A stretch of DNA of 64,000 nt from Octopus vulgaris. Taxonomy: Eukaryota. The stretch is taken from contig OX597819.1 of assembly GCA_951406725.2 (NCBI GenBank), positions 16,244,001-16,308,000 on the forward strand, given 5' to 3'. The position numbers and the translations under genes were made by a program. Every line of letters begins with the position of its first letter. The stretch's first letter is position 1. Shown here one piece after another: positions 459 to 64,000 of this stretch. The notes under the pieces were generated by a model, which did no database searches, had not been told where the DNA came from, and saw only the letters and a program-made list of their open reading frames with translations.

Positions 459-634
459 GAGTGAGAGAGCAGTTCATGCCATCAAAGTGACACTGAGGTA
501 AAATATACGAAGCCCAATATACCCATCATGACTACCCGTCTGATAAGGGTACACTAGGCACATGCATCACAACCATATGTGCGCGACATGGTGATCTCAT
601 ATCAAGATAAATAGCACATGACCTTGCAGGTGGG

Positions 635-635
<1 letters not shown>
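459..635 (-). mobile_element. 5'-truncated copy of the (AAT)n-associated retroposon
   Basis: Matches 29086-29262 and is embedded in (ATT)n. Confidence 0.75.
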
Positions 636-666
<31 letters not shown>

Positions 667-685
667 CATTATTATTATTATTTTG

Positions 686-975
686 GTTTGTCTCAGGTTC
701 GGTCTTATTCCTAGTGGGGATTCTGTGGGTAGCGGGTTACTACCTGTGATTTTAGATATTCACAAGTTTACAGCAGCCTTTCAAGTGCTTAGAACCCTCC
801 CCATAATCCTTGCTGTCCCTAAAAGACAAACATTCTGTAGAAGCTCTACTGGGCATTCTATTTCAATCACCCTCAGCCACTGGTCTAGATCTTGGCTTAT
901 TGTTCCCAACGCACCAATAATTATAGGCACGACCTTTACTGTTCACATGCTCCAAATTCTTCCTATTTCAAATGT
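686..975 (-). mobile_element. Second R4/Dong-like 3' end fragment (different subfamily)
   Basis: VKVVPIIIGALGTISQDLDQWL…LLQNVCLLGTARIMGRVLST*, then a 3'UTR and (AAT)n. Confidence 0.75.
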
Positions 976-1050: not shown

Positions 1051-1665
1051 TGCCTGTACACAGCTTCTAACGCTGGAGATGTACTACGGTGTCAGCTGTT
1101 CACTACCAGTGAACTATGGTAACACCTCTTACTTTTCGAACACCTCCCGGAGTATTCGAGAGGTTCCAAGCAGTGCGATTTTCTGCTCGACCCTTATTGC
1201 CGGCCCTATTTGTTCCATGTACTTCTCGAGATTTTTACTCACTGTTCCCAAGGCTCCGACAATTATTGGTACCACTACCACCTTTTCCATCGACCACAAC
1301 TACTTTACCTCCCAAGCTAACCTGTCGTATCTATCGACTTTTCTTTCTCCTTGTCGTATACCTTGTTGTCAGCTGGGCATGCTAGATCTATGATCCAGCA
1401 AAGTTTGCTTTCTTTCTCAATTAAAACTATGTCTGGCTTCCTATTCTCTATCTCATGTTTGCACTGAATCATAGGATATGTGCATTATCATTTTCAATGA
1501 TGCCTTCGGGTTTGTGATCGTACCAATTTTTTGCTCTGTCAAGTCCATACTTGTTGCAAAGTGTCCAATGGACAATCCTTGTCGTGGCGTCTCTTATATT
1601 CCTTCTGGGCTAGTGGTGTACATTGGTTGGTGATATACCATACGGTTTTACCCTTGTGTCCACAG
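1051..1665 (-). mobile_element. R4/Dong-clade non-LTR retrotransposon 3' end (zinc knuckle + restriction-like endonuclease), 5'-truncated and decayed
   Basis: Minus-strand translation with frameshifts: ICGHKGKTVWYITNQCTPLAQKEYKRRHDK…NWYDHKPEGIIEN…RKPDIVLIEKESKLCWIIDLACPAD…VVVVPIIVGALGTVSKNLEK…ALLGTSRILREVFEK*. Followed by an (AAT)n tail. Confidence 0.85.
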
Positions 1666-1683
1666 ATTCTTCTTCTTCTTCTT

Positions 1684-11284: not shown

Positions 11285-11892
11285 TTATCTCCATCCTGCT
11301 CTTACCCTTCACGAGATCTCATTCTCCATCTCTCGTCTCATGGTCACTTCTTGAACGAGATATTCATAGCTGCTCACCTCTCCTATTTCATCGTCTCCGA
11401 CTGTTAGGCGTCCGATGAGTACACCCTCAGACCGTATGTGCTTGGTTTTTGCACGGCTGATCTTCAGGCCGACCGCCGAAACCCTGAAATCCAGTTTATC
11501 TAACGTGGACTGCAGCTGGTCGGTGCCCTCCGCTAGCAGCGCTATCTCATTAGCGAATCTTAGATGAGTGATCAGCTCTCCGTTTATCCTTATGCCTCCG
11601 TTCCAGTTCATGTCTCGCATGACCATTTCGAGACACGCCGTGAAAAGCTTAGGAGAGATGGTGTCTCCTTGCTTGACACCCTTTTCCACCACAACATTCA
11701 CTGGTGATAATAACAGGGTCATATTCGTTGTGCACCCGGTATTCGCCTCCCTAATCTAGGTGACGTATTGTGTCGTCACACCTTGTTTCTTGAAAGTTTG
11801 CAGTACTGCGTTGATTTCGAAGCTGTTGAAGGCTTTCTCATAATCATTGAACGCAACGCACAGAGGCACCCGTTACTCTCTCGCTCACTCCG
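11285..11892 (-). mobile_element. RTE-clade LINE reverse transcriptase, core part (decayed)
   Basis: VPLCVAFNDYEKAFNS…KGVKQGDTISPKLFTACLE…GIRINGELITHLRFANEIALLAE…YEYL…EIS*RVRAGWR. Confidence 0.9.
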
Positions 11893-12600
11893 CAGTTCTG
11901 AAGGAGACAGGAAAGATCTCGGAGCAGAAAAAGAAGCTGAGGGAAAAGCGGAGAAATAGAGAACACCTGGTAGAATATTCTGTTCTTTGCAAGACTATAA
12001 GGCGATGTCTTGAGAATGACTTCGAGAGGTAGAGAAAAAAGATGCTCCCGAAGACCGCGCAAGAAGGGAAGAGCCTTCAGAAATACGAAAAGGGAGATGG
12101 TACTTCATAGAACGGAAGTAACGACGCTGAAGAACCAGGATGGCAATGCAGTAAACGATAGAAGAGATGTTGAAAAAGTCTGCAAAACCTTCTACACAAA
12201 CTTCTGTCAATCGAGAGCAGTGGTGGGGCTCCCGTCGCTGGAAAGTGAAGGAGAGAAAGTACCATCTATTCTAATCAGTGAAGTCGAGAGAGCCCTCAAA
12301 CTGCTGAACAAAGAAAAAGTACCAGGCAAGTACGATGTAACATCTGAAGTGCTTCAGACCGCTACCTAGAGGAACGGTGAATAACTTCCCAATGGAAGGA
12401 GTCAAATACGATCTTGCAGTACAAGAAGGGCGATAAGGAAGATCTTGAGAACTATCGTCCCATCCGCCCCCTGTCTCATATTTGCAAACTGTTCACGAAG
12501 ATAATCGCTGAACGGTTATCTCATCAATTGGATGAGCAACAACCAAGAGGACAGACAAGGTTCAGAAAGAAGCACAGCACCATAGATGATATATTATTAA
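11893..12600 (+). mobile_element. RTE-clade LINE upstream part, inverted relative to the RT core
   Basis: …VPSILISEVERALKLLNKEKVPGKYDVTSEVL…[58 protein letters not shown]. Confidence 0.9.
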
Positions 12601-20137: not shown

Positions 20138-20760
20138 GTAGCATTCTAGTTCATGTGAGACTAAACATTAGAACTAATGCATGAGGCATCAGTGTATGTG
20201 ATTGTGTATGTGTGTACATATATACGTATATGTGTGCGTGTGTGTGTGTATAAAAGGGCTGTGTATGTAACTGTGTGTGTATAAAAAATGTGTATATATG
20301 TATCTATCCAATGATAAATGTGATAAAGTTTGTTTACATGTACACGAATGTATAACCCACTAAAATATTATTCATTTTAAGTATATACACTTATATATAC
20401 TAATGTATGTATGTTATGTGTAGGTTTGTCTGTGTATGTATTGAGTGCATATGTGTGAGAATAAGTAAATATTTCGATTCAGATATTTTTGCGCATTTGT
20501 TTAATCGTGAAAAAGCCCTTTTTTAGACATTTCACTCCAATATTGCCAACCGTTTTGAGTATCGACTCAAGGCACGTGCCTGATATATACAAACATGCAT
20601 GCATACATACATGCATACATGCATTCATCGGTATATACATGTCTACATACATACAAAAATATGTACATGCATACATACACCGAGAAGACAATAAATAGTA
20701 AATCAATCACGTGTACTCATTAGTATGAATAATAACTCCATGAAAGAAAACAAAGTATCT

Positions 20761-21410
20761 GTAAGTAGCTACTGCGAATGTACCGCTGTATTTGTGAGTA
20801 GCTGCTGTGAGTGTACCGCTGTATTCGTGAGTAGCTGCTGTGAATGTACCGCTGTATTTGTAAGTAGCTGCTGTGATTGTACCGCTGTATTTGTGAGTAG
20901 CTGCTGTGAATGTACCGCTGTATTTGTAAGTTGCTGCTGTGAGTGTACCGCTGTATTTGTAAGTAGCTGCTGTGATTGTACCGCTGTATTCGTGAGTAGC
21001 TACTGTGATTGTACCGCTGAATTCGTGAGTAGCTGCTGTGAATGTACCGCTGTATTTGTAAGTAGCTGCTGTGAGTGTACCGCTGTATTCGTGAGTAGCT
21101 ACTGTGATTGTACCGCTGAATTCGTGAGTAGCTGCTGTGAATGTACCGTTGTATTCGTAAGTAGCTGCTGTGAATGTACCGCTGTATTCGTGAAGTAGCT
21201 ACTGTGATTGTACCGCTGAATTCGTGAGTAGCTGCTGTGAATGTACCGCTGTATTTGTAAGTAGCTGCTGTGAGTGTACCGCTGTATTCGTGAGTAGCTA
21301 CTGTGATTGTACCGCTGAATTCGTGAGTAGCTGCTGTGAATGTACCGTTGTATTCGTAAGTAGCTGCTGTGAATGTACCGCTGTATTTGTAAGTAATCGC
21401 TGTGAATGTA
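20761..21410. repeat. 33-bp minisatellite, ~20 units
   Basis: Unit GTRAGTAGCTGCTGTGADTGTACCGCTGTATTY; 1-bp insertion near 21193. Confidence 0.95.
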
Positions 21411-23898: not shown

Positions 23899-25013
23899 TT
23901 CAAAATTTGAAACCAATATATATGTATACACATGAACATAAATATGTGCATACATACATATACATTGTATATATTAAGCACAGTATGTGTGTGTATATTG
24001 ACTAATGCATACATTTCCACAATTCTCAACCGATTTTCACCAAACTTTACACTCACATTACTTTCAAAATTTGAAACCAATATATATATGTATACACATG
24101 AACATAAATATGTGCATACATATACAGTGTATATATTAATCATAGTATGTGTGTGTATATTGATAAATGCATACATTTCCACAATTCTCAACCGATTTTC
24201 ACCAAACTTTACACTCACATTAATTTCAAAATTTGAAACCAATATATATGTATACACATGAACATAAATATGTGCATACATACATATACATTGTATATAT
24301 TAATCATAGTATGTGTGTGTATATTGACAAATGCATACATTTCCACAATTCTCAACCGATTTTCACCAAACTTTACACTCACATTAATTTCAAAATTTGA
24401 AACCAATATATATGTATACACATGAACATAAATATGTGCATACATATACAGTGTATATATTAATCACAGTATGTGTGTGTATATTGATAAATGCATACAT
24501 TTCCACAATTCTCAACCGATTTTCACCAAACTTTACACTCACATTACTTTTGTGCCTAGGACTATAACAGTTTGCCGAGAGCTCTCGCGTAAATTGACAA
24601 ACTGAGAAAAACGGTGGTTAACACGGCTTTTTCTCTAATTCGTTGTATGTACATAGCTTTTTTTTGTATGTAGTGTCTTCCATACTTTTTAAAATCTATA
24701 TGGTCGTATATTGGCATAAGAGAATATCTTTAAGTGGTTTTCGCACTTTTTTGATTTATTATTTATCTATATATTACATTTGTGTATTATTGCTTTCTAT
24801 ATTTTTTTATGTGTATTGGTGTATATTGTTTGAGGATTTTTGGTTAGAGAATATTATAACAGTGAAAGGATTTTGTCTATATATCTCTACTGTTTTACAT
24901 ACTTTTTAAATCTATATGAAGGTATATTTGCATTACAGAATATGTTTTTGTTCACATTGGTTTGATTTATTATTTATATGTTAAACCGTCCGAAGGACGG
25001 GTGCGTTTGCTAG
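23899..25013 (+). mobile_element. Second Helitron family carrying a ~163-bp tandem repeat
   Basis: Four tandem units (23899-24550), then a perfect hairpin CCGTCC-GAA-GGACGG (24986-25000) 9 nt before CTAG|T (25010-25013). The 5' end is not identified. Confidence 0.6.
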
Positions 25014-28986: not shown

Positions 28987-29085
<99 letters not shown>

Positions 29086-29633
29086 GAGTGAGAGAGCAGT
29101 TCATGTCATCAAAGTGACACTGGGGTAAAATATACGAAGCCCAATATACCCATCATGACTACCCGTCTGATAAAGGTACACCAGGCACATGCATCACAAC
29201 CATATGTGCGCGACATGGTGATCTCATATCAAGATAAACAGCACATGACCTTGCAGGTGGGGCCCAGTTAGAATTTTCTTCAGGTTGAGTAGCCCATCCC
29301 GCTCAAACGGTCTCTGAATAAGGGTTGTTTAAGGATGTTGAAAAACCCACCCATGTCTCCAGAGGTGAATTATTCAAACCCCAAAGAATCCCTCTCAACA
29401 CATGGCTATGATGCTCCCCCACTACTTCTGCTCGTGATCAGAGATGCACATATCGTCAGCCACTAAGGGACATGCTCAACTGGTTAAGGTCAAACAACTG
29501 ACAAGCAAATCTGTGGTATTGAGCAGAATATTTGCTGTAGCCCATCTTTTATACCAAGACAAAACAATGTACATAATAACACTTCCAATCAGTTAGGATC
29601 AGAAGCCATGAGTCCACTGCCTGGTACTGCATC
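29086..29633 (-). mobile_element. ~550-bp non-coding (AAT)n-associated retroposon, near full-length copy
   Basis: Six related copies in the window: 459-635, 29086-29633, 33525-33691, 38708-38987, 43585-43823 and 43884-44427. The 3' end is …GCTCTCTCACTC followed by (AAT)n. Confidence 0.8.
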
Positions 29634-29687
<54 letters not shown>

Positions 29688-33474: not shown

Positions 33475-33526
<52 letters not shown>

Positions 33527-33691
33527 GGTCATGTGCTGTTTATCTTGATATGAGATCAACATGTCGCGCACATATGGTTGTGATGCATGTGCCTGGTGTA
33601 CCCTTATCAGACGGGTAGTCATGATGGGTATATTGGGCTTCGTATATTTTACCCCAGTGTCACTTTGGTGGCATGAACTGCTCTCTCACTC

Positions 33692-33736
<45 letters not shown>

Positions 33737-34034
33737 CGCTACCTAACTCAGATACTAGGAAACCCCAAAATGGCAGAAATTCAAAAGATACTGCTCATGG
33801 GAACTGCTCATATACTACGCAAAATATTTTCTATGTAATCTCAAGTTTCTCAAGTAATCTCAAGTTTTAAAACAAACATTTTTTTTTTGACATTTACTTG
33901 TACAACACTAAATACAAAACCAAATATATGGCAAACTAGGCATAACATCACGAACTTCCAACCTGCTGTCTCTTGAGGTCTCTGGGTGAGACTTGGAGCC
34001 AACTTGTACAAATATAAAGCAAAAGTCAAACATA

Positions 34035-34035
<1 letters not shown>
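33737..34035 (+). mobile_element. R4/Dong-like 3' end fragment
   Basis: MAEIQKILLMGTAHILRKIFSM* plus 3'UTR, flanked on both sides by (AAT)n. Confidence 0.7.
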
Positions 34036-38420: not shown

Positions 38421-39003
38421 TCATTTTCACAGGATTTTTCGTTGCTTTTGAGTTGTTTGTTTATAAAGATAAGTTGTGCCTTTACTTAAGTATTTGCTCC
38501 TGAATTGATGTGTAGATGGTTGAGTATTTCGCAGACACGTGTACCATAACAGAAATTCTCAAGTAGAATCAGCGTGACACGGTGTGTGGCAAGAAGACTA
38601 TACCTTTTAAATTCGAAGCACGATTCACGCGACGAGCGTCTTCAGCTCAGTTTCCATTACACCAGTTTTATCCAAACGGGATGGACTGAATCCACACTAT
38701 ATAGCAATGAATTATTCAAACCCCAAAGAATTCCTCTCAACACATGGCTCTGATACTCCCCCCCCCCACTAATTCTGTTCGTGATCAGAAATGCACATAT
38801 CAGCTACTAGAGGACATGCTCAACTGGTTAACGTCAAACAACTGACAAGCAAATCTGTAGTATTGAGCAGAATATTTGCCGTAGGCCATCTTTTATACCA
38901 AGACAAAACAATGTAGATAGTAACACTTTCAATCAGTTAAGATGAGAAGCTATGAAAGCCATTGCCTGGTACTGAATCAGGGCATTTATCATCGTCATCA
39001 TCG

Positions 39004-43501: not shown

Positions 43502-43819
43502 GCACACACACACATACATATGTACGTATGCATATACATGCATATATATATATGTATACACGTTGAGAATACCTCTCACGTTGAGCTATGATGCTCCCCC
43601 ACTACTTCTGCTCGTGGTCAGAGGTGCACATATCGTCAGCCACTAAGGGACATGCTCAACTGGTGAAGGTCAAACAACTGACAAGCAAATCTGTGGTATT
43701 GAGCAGAATATTTGCTGTAGCCCATCTTTTATACCAAGACAAAACAATGTACATGATAACACTTCCAATCAGTTAAGATCAGAAGCCATGAGAGCCACTG
43801 CCTGGTACTGCATCAGGGC

Positions 43820-43864
<45 letters not shown>

Positions 43865-43883
43865 TATTATTATTATTATTAGT

Positions 43884-44427
43884 GAGTGAGAGAGCAGTGC
43901 ATGCGACCAAAATGATGCTGGAGTAAAATGTACGAAGCCCAATCATGACTACTTGTCTTCGGTACACCAGGCACATGCATCACAACCATATGTGTGCGAC
44001 ATGGTGATCTTATATCAAGTTTAAACAGCGCATAACCTTGCAGGTGGGCTCAGTTAGAATTTTCTTCAAGTCGAGTAGCCCATTCCGCTCAAAAGGTCCC
44101 CGAATAAGGATTGTTTAAGGATGTTGAACGAAACGTCCATATTTTCAAAGGTGAATTATCCAAACCACAAAGAATTCCTCTCAACACACGGCTATGATGC
44201 TCCCCCACTACTTCTGCTCGTGATCAGAGATGCACATATCGTCAGCCACTAAGGGACATGCTCAACTGGTTAAGGTCAAACAACTGACAAGCAAATCTGT
44301 GGTATTGAGCAGAATATTTGCTGTAGCCCCTCTTTTACACCAAGACAAAACATGTAATGACAGCAATTCCAATCAGTTAAGGTCAAAAGCCATGGGAGCC
44401 ACTGCCTGGTACTGCGTCAGGACATTT
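43884..44427 (-). mobile_element. ~550-bp (AAT)n-associated retroposon, full-length copy (partial copy adjacent at 43585-43823)
   Basis: Colinear with 29086-29633 and flanked by ATT/ATC arrays. Confidence 0.8.
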
Positions 44428-46949: not shown

Positions 46950-47220
46950 GTGATAATAATAATAATAATAGTGATAAAAATAATAATAATAGTGATAATA
47001 ATAATTATAATAATGATAATAATAATAGTGATAATAATAATAATAATGATAATAATAGTGATAATAGTAATGATAATAATAATAATCCATTATTAAGTCG
47101 GCCTCGGCGGAATTTGAACACAGAACCTAGCGACGGGCGAAATACCACTAAGCATTACGTCCAGCGTGCTAACGATTCTGCCAGATCGCCACCCTAATAA
47201 TAATATTAATAATAATAATG

Positions 47221-47251
<31 letters not shown>

Positions 47252-47440
47252 ACGGCAAAGTCGACCTCGGCAGAATTTGAACTCAGAACGTAGCAACGGG
47301 CGAAATACCGCTAAGCATTACGTCCAGCCAGATCGCCACTCTAATAATATTGATGATGATGATGATGATGATAATAATAATAATAGGAAGAAGGAAGAAG
47401 AAGATGAAGAAGGAGAAGAAGGAGAAGAAGAAGAAGAAGA

Positions 47441-47700
47441 AAGTAATGGTGATACCGGTGGTAACTGGAGCACTAGGAGCAGTTTCCAAGGGTTTTGAAA
47501 AACATATTAAGAATATTGGAGCCGCTGTCAGGCTCGAAGTGTTCCAGAAGACAGCATTCTTGGGTACAGCTCGCATTCTAAGGTGAGTATTGTCTCTTTG
47601 AGTCACAGAAGAAGGCACTACTTGAAACCTTTGGTGATTTGTTATTGCCAGCTTTCAAGTAAAGAATAACCGGTAATTAAGAACTATCCGAGAGTCTTTG
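47441..47700 (+). mobile_element. R4/Dong-like 3' end fragment
   Basis: VMVIPVVTGALGAVSKGFEKHIKNIGAAVRLEVFQKTAFLGTARILR, then a 3'UTR and (ATA)n tail. Confidence 0.75.

Positions 47701-63356: not shown

Positions 63357-63403
<47 letters not shown>
60660..63403. repeat. Cluster of long interrupted (TA)n tracts
   Basis: ~60660-61540, 62160-62780 and 63090-63403. Confidence 0.95.
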
Positions 63404-63408
<5 letters not shown>

Positions 63409-63995
63409 GAAATGAAGAAAATGCTGACAAAATAATTTAAGTAAAGGAGAGTGTATTTAATTAGGTGAAAGTTCTTTTTTAAAACAAAAAAAGGTGAAAA
63501 ATTGGGTTAGAATACAATGTTCATTTTTTGTGAATGATTTCAGTGTAGAATAAAAAAAGTAAGAGTTTACCGGTTGCGCATTTGTTATGCTTATCAAAAG
63601 ATATTTTTGAGTGAGATAGAGTTCCTTTCTGATTGATTTTTTTCGAGAAAAAAATCAATCAGAAAGGAACTCTATCTCACTCAAAATATCTTTTGATAAG
63701 CATAACAAATGCGCAACCGGTAAACTCTTTTTTTATTCTACACTGAAATCTGACATTGAACTTTTCCACAAAAAACTGTATATTACACGCTTTTACTAAA
63801 TATCTTATTCTGCAACAGAACACTGTAAAAGACTCTTACTTTTTTTCTTATACACTGTAATCATTCACAAAAAATGAACATTGTATTCGAACCCAATTTT
63901 CCCCTTTTTTTGTTTAAAAAAAGAACTTTCACCTAATTAAATACACTCTCCCTTACTTAAATTATTTTGTCAGCATTTTCTTCATTTCCTTTTTT
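63403..63995. mobile_element. Foldback/MITE-like palindromic element with nested hairpin
   Basis: ~63405-63565 is the reverse complement of ~63832-63992. An inner near-perfect palindrome ~63537-63750 is centred on T7-CGAG-A7. TA-rich flanks. Confidence 0.8.
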
Positions 63996-64000
63996 TATAT

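What the first reader, a model, noticed from the sequence alone, without database searches (positions are those of the whole stretch)
29086..29633. ~550-bp non-coding, non-tRNA element that always abuts (AAT)n: candidate non-autonomous partner of Dong-like RLE elements
Seen: six copies in 64 kb. Three share the same 5' end, AAATG(C/T)CCTGA… on the minus strand (38987, 43823, 44427). Four share the 3' end GCTCTCTCACTC+(AAT)n. Two are 5'-truncated straight into AAT repeats. No convincing ORF and no obvious Pol III A/B boxes. Inference: a site-specific SINE/SIDE-like parasite of the R4/Dong machinery. A fixed 5' end may reflect a self-cleaving ribozyme, as in R2/R4 elements, but I could not fold one by eye.
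Basis: partly seen in the sequence, partly recalled or inferred. Interest (0 to 1): 0.75.

Follow-up and report, generated by a model that had tools for sequence, protein, structure and literature searches.

The report
Microsatellite-targeting passenger of Dong retrotransposons
A 558-base non-coding repeat with over 13,000 copies sits almost always inside AAT microsatellites of this octopus-like genome and likely borrows the enzymes of Dong retrotransposons to copy itself, although it shares no detectable sequence with the Dong families compared and carries a piece of a DNA transposon in its middle.

Summary
The six copies belong to a 558-bp non-coding family with at least 13,081 exact 3' ends in the genome; 85% are followed by AATAAT. 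Of 61 consecutive copies, 52 are preceded and 59 followed by AAT-type repeats, against 5% background. About half are 5'-truncated, and 23 of those 30 join AAT directly. This is the footprint of target-primed retrotransposition. The only autonomous elements found ending in these arrays are Dong/R4-like LINEs, three of them young with intact ORFs, so Dong is the likely helper (inferred).

It is not a LINE 3'UTR. It did not pass as a SIDE: neither end resembles Dong-B, -E or -F, and none of 195 Dong tails matches. No ribozyme, tRNA head or A box was found. A 3' hairpin looks like a hairpin conserved across Dong tails, but a Dong-only model scores it as insignificant. New here: positions 105-274 are 96.5% identical to the middle of an older MITE.

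Closest precedent: Entamoeba EhSINE1, an R4-dependent, non-tRNA element. Repbase and Dfam could not be checked.

The parts
29086..29633 (-). Focal copy of the 558-bp element (positions 10-558; first 9 nt missing), young subfamily
   Evidence: 97.8% to the family majority; junctions
29370..29539 (-). Element positions 105-274, shared with positions 208-377 of a ~490-bp MITE
   Evidence: 96.5% between the two majorities; found through recurrent loose ends in three organisms
29139..29186 (-). Predicted 3' hairpin (element 458-505) with CCTTA, a GGGTA loop and TGG in the same register as the Dong 3'UTR hairpin; candidate recognition signal
   Evidence: Fold; Dong-only model aligns here over its full length but at 6.1 bits, E 1.2, not significant
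29017..29085 (-). (AAT)n array at the 3' junction (tail and target), running on into (AAG)n
29635..29685 (-). (AAT)n array at the 5' junction (target)
43884..44427 (-). Full-length older copy (254A/270G/282T/401C subfamily)
   Evidence: 89.4%; haplotype
43566..43823 (-). Copy with positions 1-259 only, directly behind the AAT tail of the previous copy; 3' half missing
38708..38987 (-). Copy with positions 1-278 only; 3' half missing
459..635 (-). 5'-truncated copy (382-558) between two AAT arrays, stacked behind two Dong fragments
33525..33691 (+). 5'-truncated copy (392-558) between two AAT arrays, followed by a Dong-B fragment
1051..1667 (-). 5'-truncated Dong/R4-like LINE fragment, family A (RLE region and 3'UTR), ending in (AAT)n
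683..969 (-). 5'-truncated Dong/R4-like fragment, family C, ending in (AAT)n
33737..34035 (+). 5'-truncated Dong/R4-like fragment, family B, ending in (AAT)n
47452..47699 (+). Dong/R4-like fragment, family D (ORF end and 3'UTR), ending in (AAT)n

Best explanation
This is a composite, non-coding 558-bp retroposon that inserts into (AAT)n microsatellites and is likely copied in trans by the reverse transcriptase and endonuclease of Dong/R4-like LINEs. Shown: fixed ends, AAT on both sides, frequent 5' truncation, no ORF, successive subfamilies, and a MITE-shared middle. Inferred steps: (1) a unit-length RNA is made, probably by Pol II, since there is no A box and there are T4 runs; how its 5' end is fixed is unknown, and an internal promoter is more likely than a ribozyme. 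(2) A Dong protein binds the RNA's 3' end, perhaps through the hairpin at 458-505 plus the AAT tail. (3) The endonuclease nicks an AAT array and primes reverse transcription at CACTC|AATAAT. (4) Synthesis completes or aborts, and the cDNA joins the upstream AAT strand. Each insertion leaves AAT on both sides, so copies stack with Dong fragments.
For: Target: 11,180 of 13,081 exact 3' ends are followed by AATAAT. Of 61 consecutive copies on C1, 52 have AAT-type repeats upstream and 59 downstream; background is 4.9%. Polarity: of 32 5'-truncated copies with a 3' end, 20 join AAT upstream; of 17 hits with a 5' start but no 3' end, 3 have AAT at the break. In the consecutive sample, 23 of 30 truncated copies join AAT directly, and 27 of 31 full copies start within 5 nt of position 1. 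Reverse-transcription marks: tandem repeats of terminal or internal pieces at 5' junctions (7 of 89 junctions, against 4 of 21 for Dong-E) and one 5' inversion (L239). Helper: among 397 sequence ends upstream of AAT arrays, the recurring classes were this element, Dong tails and small RNA-like repeats; 126 ends were singletons. Dong-B, -E and -F have intact RT ORFs of 1226-1268 aa. The 3' junction is AAT in 57 of 62 element copies, 6 of 6 Dong-E and 14 of 17 Dong-B. Age: the young subfamily is 1.3% from its majority; Dong-B, -E and -F medians are 1.0-1.4% (both samples lean young). Dong is reported to target TAA repeats (PMC3812793, PMC1635306, passages).
Against: There is no direct link to a Dong protein. 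Neither end aligns with Dong-B, -E or -F better than shuffles, and none of 195 Dong ORF ends carries this tail. The Dong-only covariance model misses the hairpin at E<=10 in the window and in 27 loci and gives it 6.1 bits in a restricted search. It also misses the real Dong-E tail, so the test is inconclusive. A descriptor written after seeing the hairpin gave 12 of 2000 shuffles (last 120 nt) but matched only 4 of 16 Dong training segments. The hairpin shows no recurrent two-sided change: its four common variants are one-sided and keep pairing, which is weak evidence. Dong-F and -B show few 5' duplications (0 of 19, 1 of 53). There are no RNA data for the start or the polymerase. About 13 Dong tail types were seen, whereas an O. 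vulgaris annotation lists 51 Dong-R4 families.
Confidence: 0.6

Rival explanations
1. It is a SIDE or tail-sharing SINE-like element of a Dong family that I did not sample or that is extinct. Its first 104 nt and/or last 284 nt would be that family's UTRs, with the MITE piece added between them. The helper is still Dong.
For: The 3' hairpin has the Dong layout and matches Dong-A at 18 of 25 ungapped positions by eye. True 5' ends were recovered only for families B, E and F. An O. vulgaris annotation counts 51 Dong-R4 families. SIDEs and R4-partner SINE-like elements exist (PMC3414825 abstract; PMC3747384 Table 1 passage).
Against: 0 of 195 Dong ORF ends have this tail. None of 61 consecutive 3' ends continues into a shared upstream sequence; two abut Dong coding fragments without a match to each other. 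No recurrent foreign loose end showed on the 3' half, but only 6 of 469 loose ends were displayed. Local alignment with 17 tail clusters gave a best p of 0.04, uncorrected.
Confidence: 0.25
2. It is moved by another non-LTR machinery (Tx1, RTE, CR1, Hero or Penelope-like) that also nicks or primes in AAT arrays.
For: No sequence ties it to Dong. 126 of 397 ends next to AAT arrays were singletons and were not translated. Octopus has many recently active RTE, CR1, L1-Tx1 and Penelope families (PMC13282606 Table 1).
Against: No such class recurred at AAT arrays in about 0.65 Mb of array-rich loci. The 3' register is the same as Dong's. The loci were, however, fetched with Dong and element queries, so they favour Dong.
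Confidence: 0.1
3. It is a DNA-level element (a MITE derivative or solo LTR; it can be read as TG...CA) that prefers AAT arrays.
For: 170 bp are shared with a MITE. The ends can be read as TG and CA.
Against: The MITE's terminal and subterminal inverted repeats are absent from the element. 30 of 61 copies are 5'-truncated with an intact 3' end, which cut-and-paste transposition or LTR recombination does not produce. No two-LTR form with a shared interior appeared in the loci examined.
Confidence: 0.03
4. It is only the 3'UTR of a longer LINE.
For: Half of the copies are 5'-truncated.
Against: 31 of 61 copies start at the same 5' end, 29 of these 31 directly after AAT-type repeats. The exact 5' 21-mer occurs 6,477 times. 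No ORF continues upstream.
Confidence: 0.02

Closest known systems
EhSINE1/EhLINE1 of Entamoeba histolytica; EdSINE1 and R4-N1_ED with R4-1_ED (PMC2996970, PMC3747384, PMC1635306, PMC3716655; passages read)
   Same: About 550 nt, no ORF, no known small-RNA precursor, promoter unknown, dependent on an R4-type LINE with a restriction-like endonuclease.
   Different: EhSINE1 shares about 70 nt of 3' end with its LINE and has no targeted insertion. This element shares no detectable end with the Dong families compared, is microsatellite-specific, lies in an animal genome and has a MITE-shared middle.
R2 SIDEs of Drosophila (PMC3414825, abstract; PMC3774820, passages)
   Same: Short, non-coding, site-specific passenger of a restriction-like-endonuclease LINE, with TPRT-type 5' junction variation.
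   Different: SIDEs are the 5' ribozyme plus the 3'UTR of the parent. Here neither part was found.
Dong (Bombyx mori), DongAg, DongBg (PMC3812793, PMC1635306, PMC3774820; passages)
   Same: TAA/AAT microsatellite target and AAT tail.
   Different: Dong is autonomous, and B. mori Dong has a self-cleaving HDV-like ribozyme. This element is non-coding, and no ribozyme was found in it.
MER6 (PMC6887750, abstract)
   Same: A segment shared between a non-autonomous retroposon and a MITE.
   Different: In MER6 the MITE took a SINE V domain. Here the direction is unresolved and the retroposon is not tRNA-derived.
LP-SINEs and tRNA/CORE/Ceph SINEs of molluscs (PMC4758252, passages)
   Same: Short, modular, LINE-dependent molluscan retroposons, some without a tRNA head.

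Membership tests
Non-autonomous non-LTR retroposon | No coding capacity | tested here: met
   Longest ATG frame is 50 aa; no tblastn match to Dong proteins below E 1
Non-autonomous non-LTR retroposon | Fixed 3' end with repeat tail and variable 5' truncation | tested here: met
Non-autonomous non-LTR retroposon | Transcribed as a unit RNA | not testable with these tools
   Only contigs were available; one 191-nt contig in one RNA run (X20) was laid on it
Dong-dependent element | Same target and strand as Dong (AAT arrays, 3' junction at |AAT) | tested here: met
Dong-dependent element | 3' recognition signal shared with the Dong 3'UTR | tested here: inconclusive
   Layout similar by eye. Model score 6.1 bits, E 1.2; the model also misses Dong-E; no sequence homology
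Dong-dependent element | Mobilised by Dong protein in trans | not testable with these tools
   Needs an experiment
SIDE / bipartite non-autonomous LINE | 5' end homologous to the parent LINE's 5' end | tested here: not met
   Not met for Dong-B, -E and -F; 5' ends of the other families were not recovered
SIDE / bipartite non-autonomous LINE | 3' end homologous to the parent LINE's 3'UTR | tested here: not met
   0 of 195 Dong ORF ends; 17 tail clusters aligned
SIDE / bipartite non-autonomous LINE | 5' HDV-like ribozyme | tested here: inconclusive
   No strict hit; one relaxed hit that 24 of 40 shuffles also give; no positive control, and no strict hit in the Dong 5' ends either; no Rfam ribozyme
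Pol III SINE (tRNA/5S/7SL/snRNA head) | Small-RNA-derived head with A and B boxes | tested here: not met
   ARAGORN found nothing in the element in 5 loci; Rfam none; no A box within 1 mismatch
Retrozyme | Complete hammerhead ribozyme | tested here: not met
   Two CTGANGA words and two GAAA words exist, but I could not close stem II and the cleavage triplet by eye; no Rfam hammerhead hit
MITE | Terminal inverted repeats and target duplication | tested here: not met
   The element holds only the MITE's interior 208-377
R4/Dong clade (for the helper LINEs) | Single ORF with RT, zinc knuckle and C-terminal PD..D endonuclease; TAA target | tested here: met
   RVT_1 in all three, zf-RVT below cut-off in two; PD..D motif read in the translation; AAT junctions
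R4/Dong clade (for the helper LINEs) | Placement with named Dong/R4 elements in an RT tree | not tested
   No labelled reference proteins were held; the name Dong is my assignment from structure and target

The most novel reading that the evidence does not exclude
A retroposon assembled from unrelated parts, including a captured piece of a DNA transposon, with no tRNA head, no ribozyme and no LINE-derived sequence. It hijacks Dong proteins by mimicking the shape of their conserved 3' hairpin, and became one of the commonest residents of AAT arrays. It would be an animal SINE-like family born without LINE or Pol III ancestry, and a natural reporter of what R4/Dong proteins recognise.
Probability: 0.3. 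Interest if true: 0.62.

Novelty: new variant of a known kind. Interest (0 to 1): 0.42.

Why it matters
Known passengers of R4-type LINEs come from Entamoeba and share a 3' tail with their LINE. A 2018 survey lists only RTE, Ingi, Vingi and R2 as making bipartite non-coding passengers (PMC5786205, section 23). A successful, microsatellite-specific passenger of Dong in an animal, without tail homology, would show that these proteins can read RNA shape or only the repeat tail. Together with the covarying Dong 3'UTR hairpin found here, it makes the template-recognition rule of R4/Dong proteins testable. In practice the family is a large repeat class that probably sits among 'unclassified' repeats, and it can confound AAT microsatellite markers. 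Non-autonomous retroposons as such are ordinary, the family may already be in Repbase or Dfam, and the helper is not proven, so the score is moderate.

Tried and rejected
Rfam on the focal copy and on four loci: no relevant family. ARAGORN: nothing in the element. HDV descriptor: no strict hit, and the relaxed hit is at chance level. Hammerhead: core words are present, but no complete core by eye. Whole-element folding is only mildly better than shuffles (z -2.2); one of 16 windows reached z -3. Opposite orientation: rejected by the truncation polarity. End homology to Dong-A, Dong-B, Dong-E and -F and four N-terminal Dong fragments: none. The Dong-tail covariance model did not detect the element. 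A search with an 84% copy returned 40 other hits, nearly all at 77-79%, so no separate older subfamily was seen among 40 scored of 7,541 candidates. Direction of the MITE exchange: unresolved. Two of 6 differences are CpG in the element and CpA/TpG in the MITE, which leans to element-to-MITE. The MITE copies are older on average (11% against 8% for old element copies), which leans the other way. RNA runs held only small shares of the words (0.06-0.22) and give no evidence on expression. Ten literature searches and one supplement search found no description of this element; one search searched its end sequences and gave one unrelated hit. Repbase, Dfam, SINEBase and the repeat library of PMC13282606 could not be searched and may hold it.

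Full report
Setting. The window is G000:C6:16244001-16308000, in a 2.80-Gb assembly of 227 contigs. Genome size, about 30 large contigs and the repeat content suggest an octopus. That is my inference; earlier scan notes say the same.

Observation. All six copies are present as described. Two are near full length, two are 5'-truncated between AAT arrays, and two lack their 3' half. The unit is 558 bp, from (AAT)n AAATGCCCTGATGCAG to CTCTCTCACTC (AAT)n. The focal copy lacks the first 9 nt. Exact 21-mers from the 3' and 5' ends occur 13,081 and 6,477 times in the genome, with zero hits for the reversed controls, so 13,000 is a lower bound. DNA runs of three coded organisms hold 82-94% of its sampled words.

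Target and polarity. 11,180 of the 13,081 exact 3' ends are followed by AATAAT. To avoid picking best hits, I fetched the first 61 of the 100 listed 3'-end matches on C1; these have an intact 3' end by selection. 52 of 61 have AAT-type repeats upstream and 59 of 61 downstream, against 4.9% of random window positions. 31 are full length, 27 of them starting within 5 nt of position 1. 30 are 5'-truncated, and 23 of these join AAT directly. The other seven are one tandem array of a 19-nt internal piece, one 5' inversion, two that abut Dong coding fragments, and three unique flanks; none shares an upstream sequence. In the larger, search-biased set, 20 of 32 5'-truncated copies join AAT upstream, whereas only 3 of 17 hits lacking a 3' end have AAT at the break (14 hits at locus edges were set aside). 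The 3'-less copies look like later deletions or small 5' duplications (inferred).

Age. 109 full-length copies fall into young, middle and old groups, 1.3%, 3.0% and 6.9% from their own majorities. The family has been active through successive masters until recently.

Candidate helper. Clustering 397 sequence ends upstream of AAT arrays gave this element (76), Dong-type tails, small RNA-like repeats and 126 singletons. About 13 Dong tail types were seen. Family A is old and truncated. Families B, E and F are young, with intact ORFs of 1268, 1226 and 1235 aa that carry an RT domain. All 138 scored Dong-E hits were listed at 100% identity. Median 3' divergence of B, E and F is 1.0-1.4%, like the young subfamily. 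The 3' junction is at |AAT for 57 of 62 element copies, 6 of 6 Dong-E and 14 of 17 Dong-B. Tandem duplications at 5' junctions occur in 7 of 89 element and 4 of 21 Dong-E junctions, but in 0 of 19 Dong-F and 1 of 53 Dong-B. In the window, two copies are stacked with Dong fragments in the same arrays. Dong is reported to target TAA repeats (PMC3812793, PMC1635306; passages). The name Dong/R4 is my assignment from domain layout and target, without a tree. The helper role is inferred.

Not a SIDE of the families compared. The 5' ends of B, E and F were mapped. Neither end of the element aligns with them better than shuffles, and none of 195 Dong ORF ends carries its tail. Contigs of one DNA run showed no recurrent foreign sequence joining its 3' half, but only 6 of 469 loose ends were displayed. 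An unsampled parent remains possible: an O. vulgaris annotation lists 51 Dong-R4 families (PMC13282606 supplement).

The 3' hairpin. Dong tails from 11 families share a hairpin about 45-60 nt before the tail: outer stem, a CCTWR-like 5-nt bulge, a 6-bp stem, a 5-nt loop and a 3-nt bulge. It covaries: 57 cells change on both sides, 0 of 500 shuffles reach that, and the slid controls are lower (the segments were anchored on the loop by hand, which favours the inner stem). The element has CCTTA, TCAGAC, a GGGTA loop and TGG in that register, 77 nt from its end. A model built from Dong only aligns there over its full length but at 6.1 bits, E 1.2, and finds no element copy at E<=10 in the window or in 27 loci. 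It also misses the true Dong-E tail, which was left out of training. A post hoc descriptor gave 12 of 2000 shuffles but fitted only 4 of 16 training segments. Four common variants in the element's hairpin are one-sided and keep pairing; no two-sided change recurs. The hairpin is a lead, not a result.

No ribozyme or Pol III head found. Rfam, ARAGORN, A/B-box, HDV and hammerhead scans were negative. The HDV descriptor was written from memory, had no positive control and found no strict hit in the Dong 5' ends, so it is inconclusive. Three T4 runs and a subfamily variant that lengthens a T run at position 300 (24 of 78 copies) argue mildly against Pol III. No RNA data show the start site.

The MITE segment. 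Laying public contigs on the element showed the same foreign sequence before position 108 and after position 274 in all three organisms. That sequence occurs 396 times as an exact 20-mer. Twenty such loci define a ~490-bp element with 11-bp terminal inverted repeats starting CACTG, a ~96-bp subterminal inverted repeat at 80%, and TAA or TTA flanks. The two flanks were identical in 4 of the 8 copies where both ends were mapped. Its positions 208-377 are 96.5% identical to element positions 105-274 and end where the right inverted arm begins. MITE copies are a median 89% to their majority. Old element copies do not carry the MITE alleles, so the exchange predates the copies sampled. The direction is unresolved. 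MER6 is a precedent for a MITE holding a SINE piece (PMC6887750, abstract).

Comparison. EhSINE1 is 500-600 bp, has no ORF and no known small-RNA precursor, and shares about 70 nt with its LINE (PMC2996970, passages). Entamoeba SINE-like elements are listed with R4-1_ED as partner (PMC3747384, table passage). So an R4-dependent, non-tRNA passenger is a known kind. R2 SIDEs are ribozyme plus 3'UTR (PMC3414825, abstract; PMC3774820, passages). Bipartite non-coding LINE derivatives are reported for RTE, Ingi, Vingi and R2 only (PMC5786205, section 23). Octopus repeat papers mention Dong-R4 activity and about 900 recently active SINE families, mostly unclassified, without describing this element in what I read (PMC13282606 part 1 of 3 and passages; PMC8967140, PMC9115989 and PMC4758252, passages). 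PMC3716655 and PMC2657916 were seen as passages. Repbase and Dfam could not be checked.

Verdict. This is a real, large, recently active, AAT-specific non-autonomous retroposon. Dong help is likely (about 0.85 with or without a shared-UTR origin) but unproven. The ribozyme and SIDE ideas are not supported. It is a new variant of a known kind; interest 0.42.

Noticed in passing
Alignment A1 (e.g. window 1082-1130 -, 719-767 -, 33961-34009 +, 47617-47665 +): A conserved 3'UTR hairpin across 11 Dong-like families with strong covariation. I did not find it described in my searches; it is a candidate template-recognition signal of R4/Dong proteins.
   Followed up: partly
L136-L145 (e.g. G000:C18:16882000-16888300): Dong-E appears currently active: all 138 scored hits were listed at 100% protein identity, several with 1226-aa frames. 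Its 5' junctions often carry 2-6 tandem copies of the first 22-33 nt.
   Followed up: partly
L148, L153, L154; L112-L134: Dong-F and Dong-B 5' ends share the word GCGGCTGGACGTG. It resembles a downstream Pol II promoter element (recalled, untested). No strict HDV fold was found there.
   Followed up: no
L185-L204: An old ~490-bp MITE with CACTG termini, long subterminal inverted repeats and TAA/TTA flanks; superfamily not determined (CACTA- or PIF/Harbinger-like, recalled).
   Followed up: partly
G000:C1:30148150-30149000; L230; L019; L104: Tandem arrays of short element pieces (19-68 nt) at 5' junctions, including 11 copies of the 5' 21-mer mostly about 68 nt apart; probably repeated template slippage that can seed minisatellites.
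   Followed up: no
window 47086-47325 and many loci: Other abundant short repeats, probably tRNA-derived SINEs on the opposite strand, abut AAT arrays at one or both ends. Their tails may supply the arrays that Dong and this element target.
   Followed up: no
window 11297-11863 (-) and 12408-12599 (+): Decayed reverse-transcriptase fragments, distant from Dong (about 25-40% identity).
   Followed up: no
window 20755-21410 and 23899-24550: Minisatellites with 33-bp and 164-bp units.
   Followed up: no
window 63397-64000: A 170-bp inverted repeat at 94% between 63397-63566 and 63832-64000.
   Followed up: no
Runs X2, X3, X4: Organism B (run X3) carries mostly the older alleles (254A, 297T), suggesting that the young subfamily expanded only in the lineages of organisms A and C; contig depth is a rough guide.
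   Followed up: no
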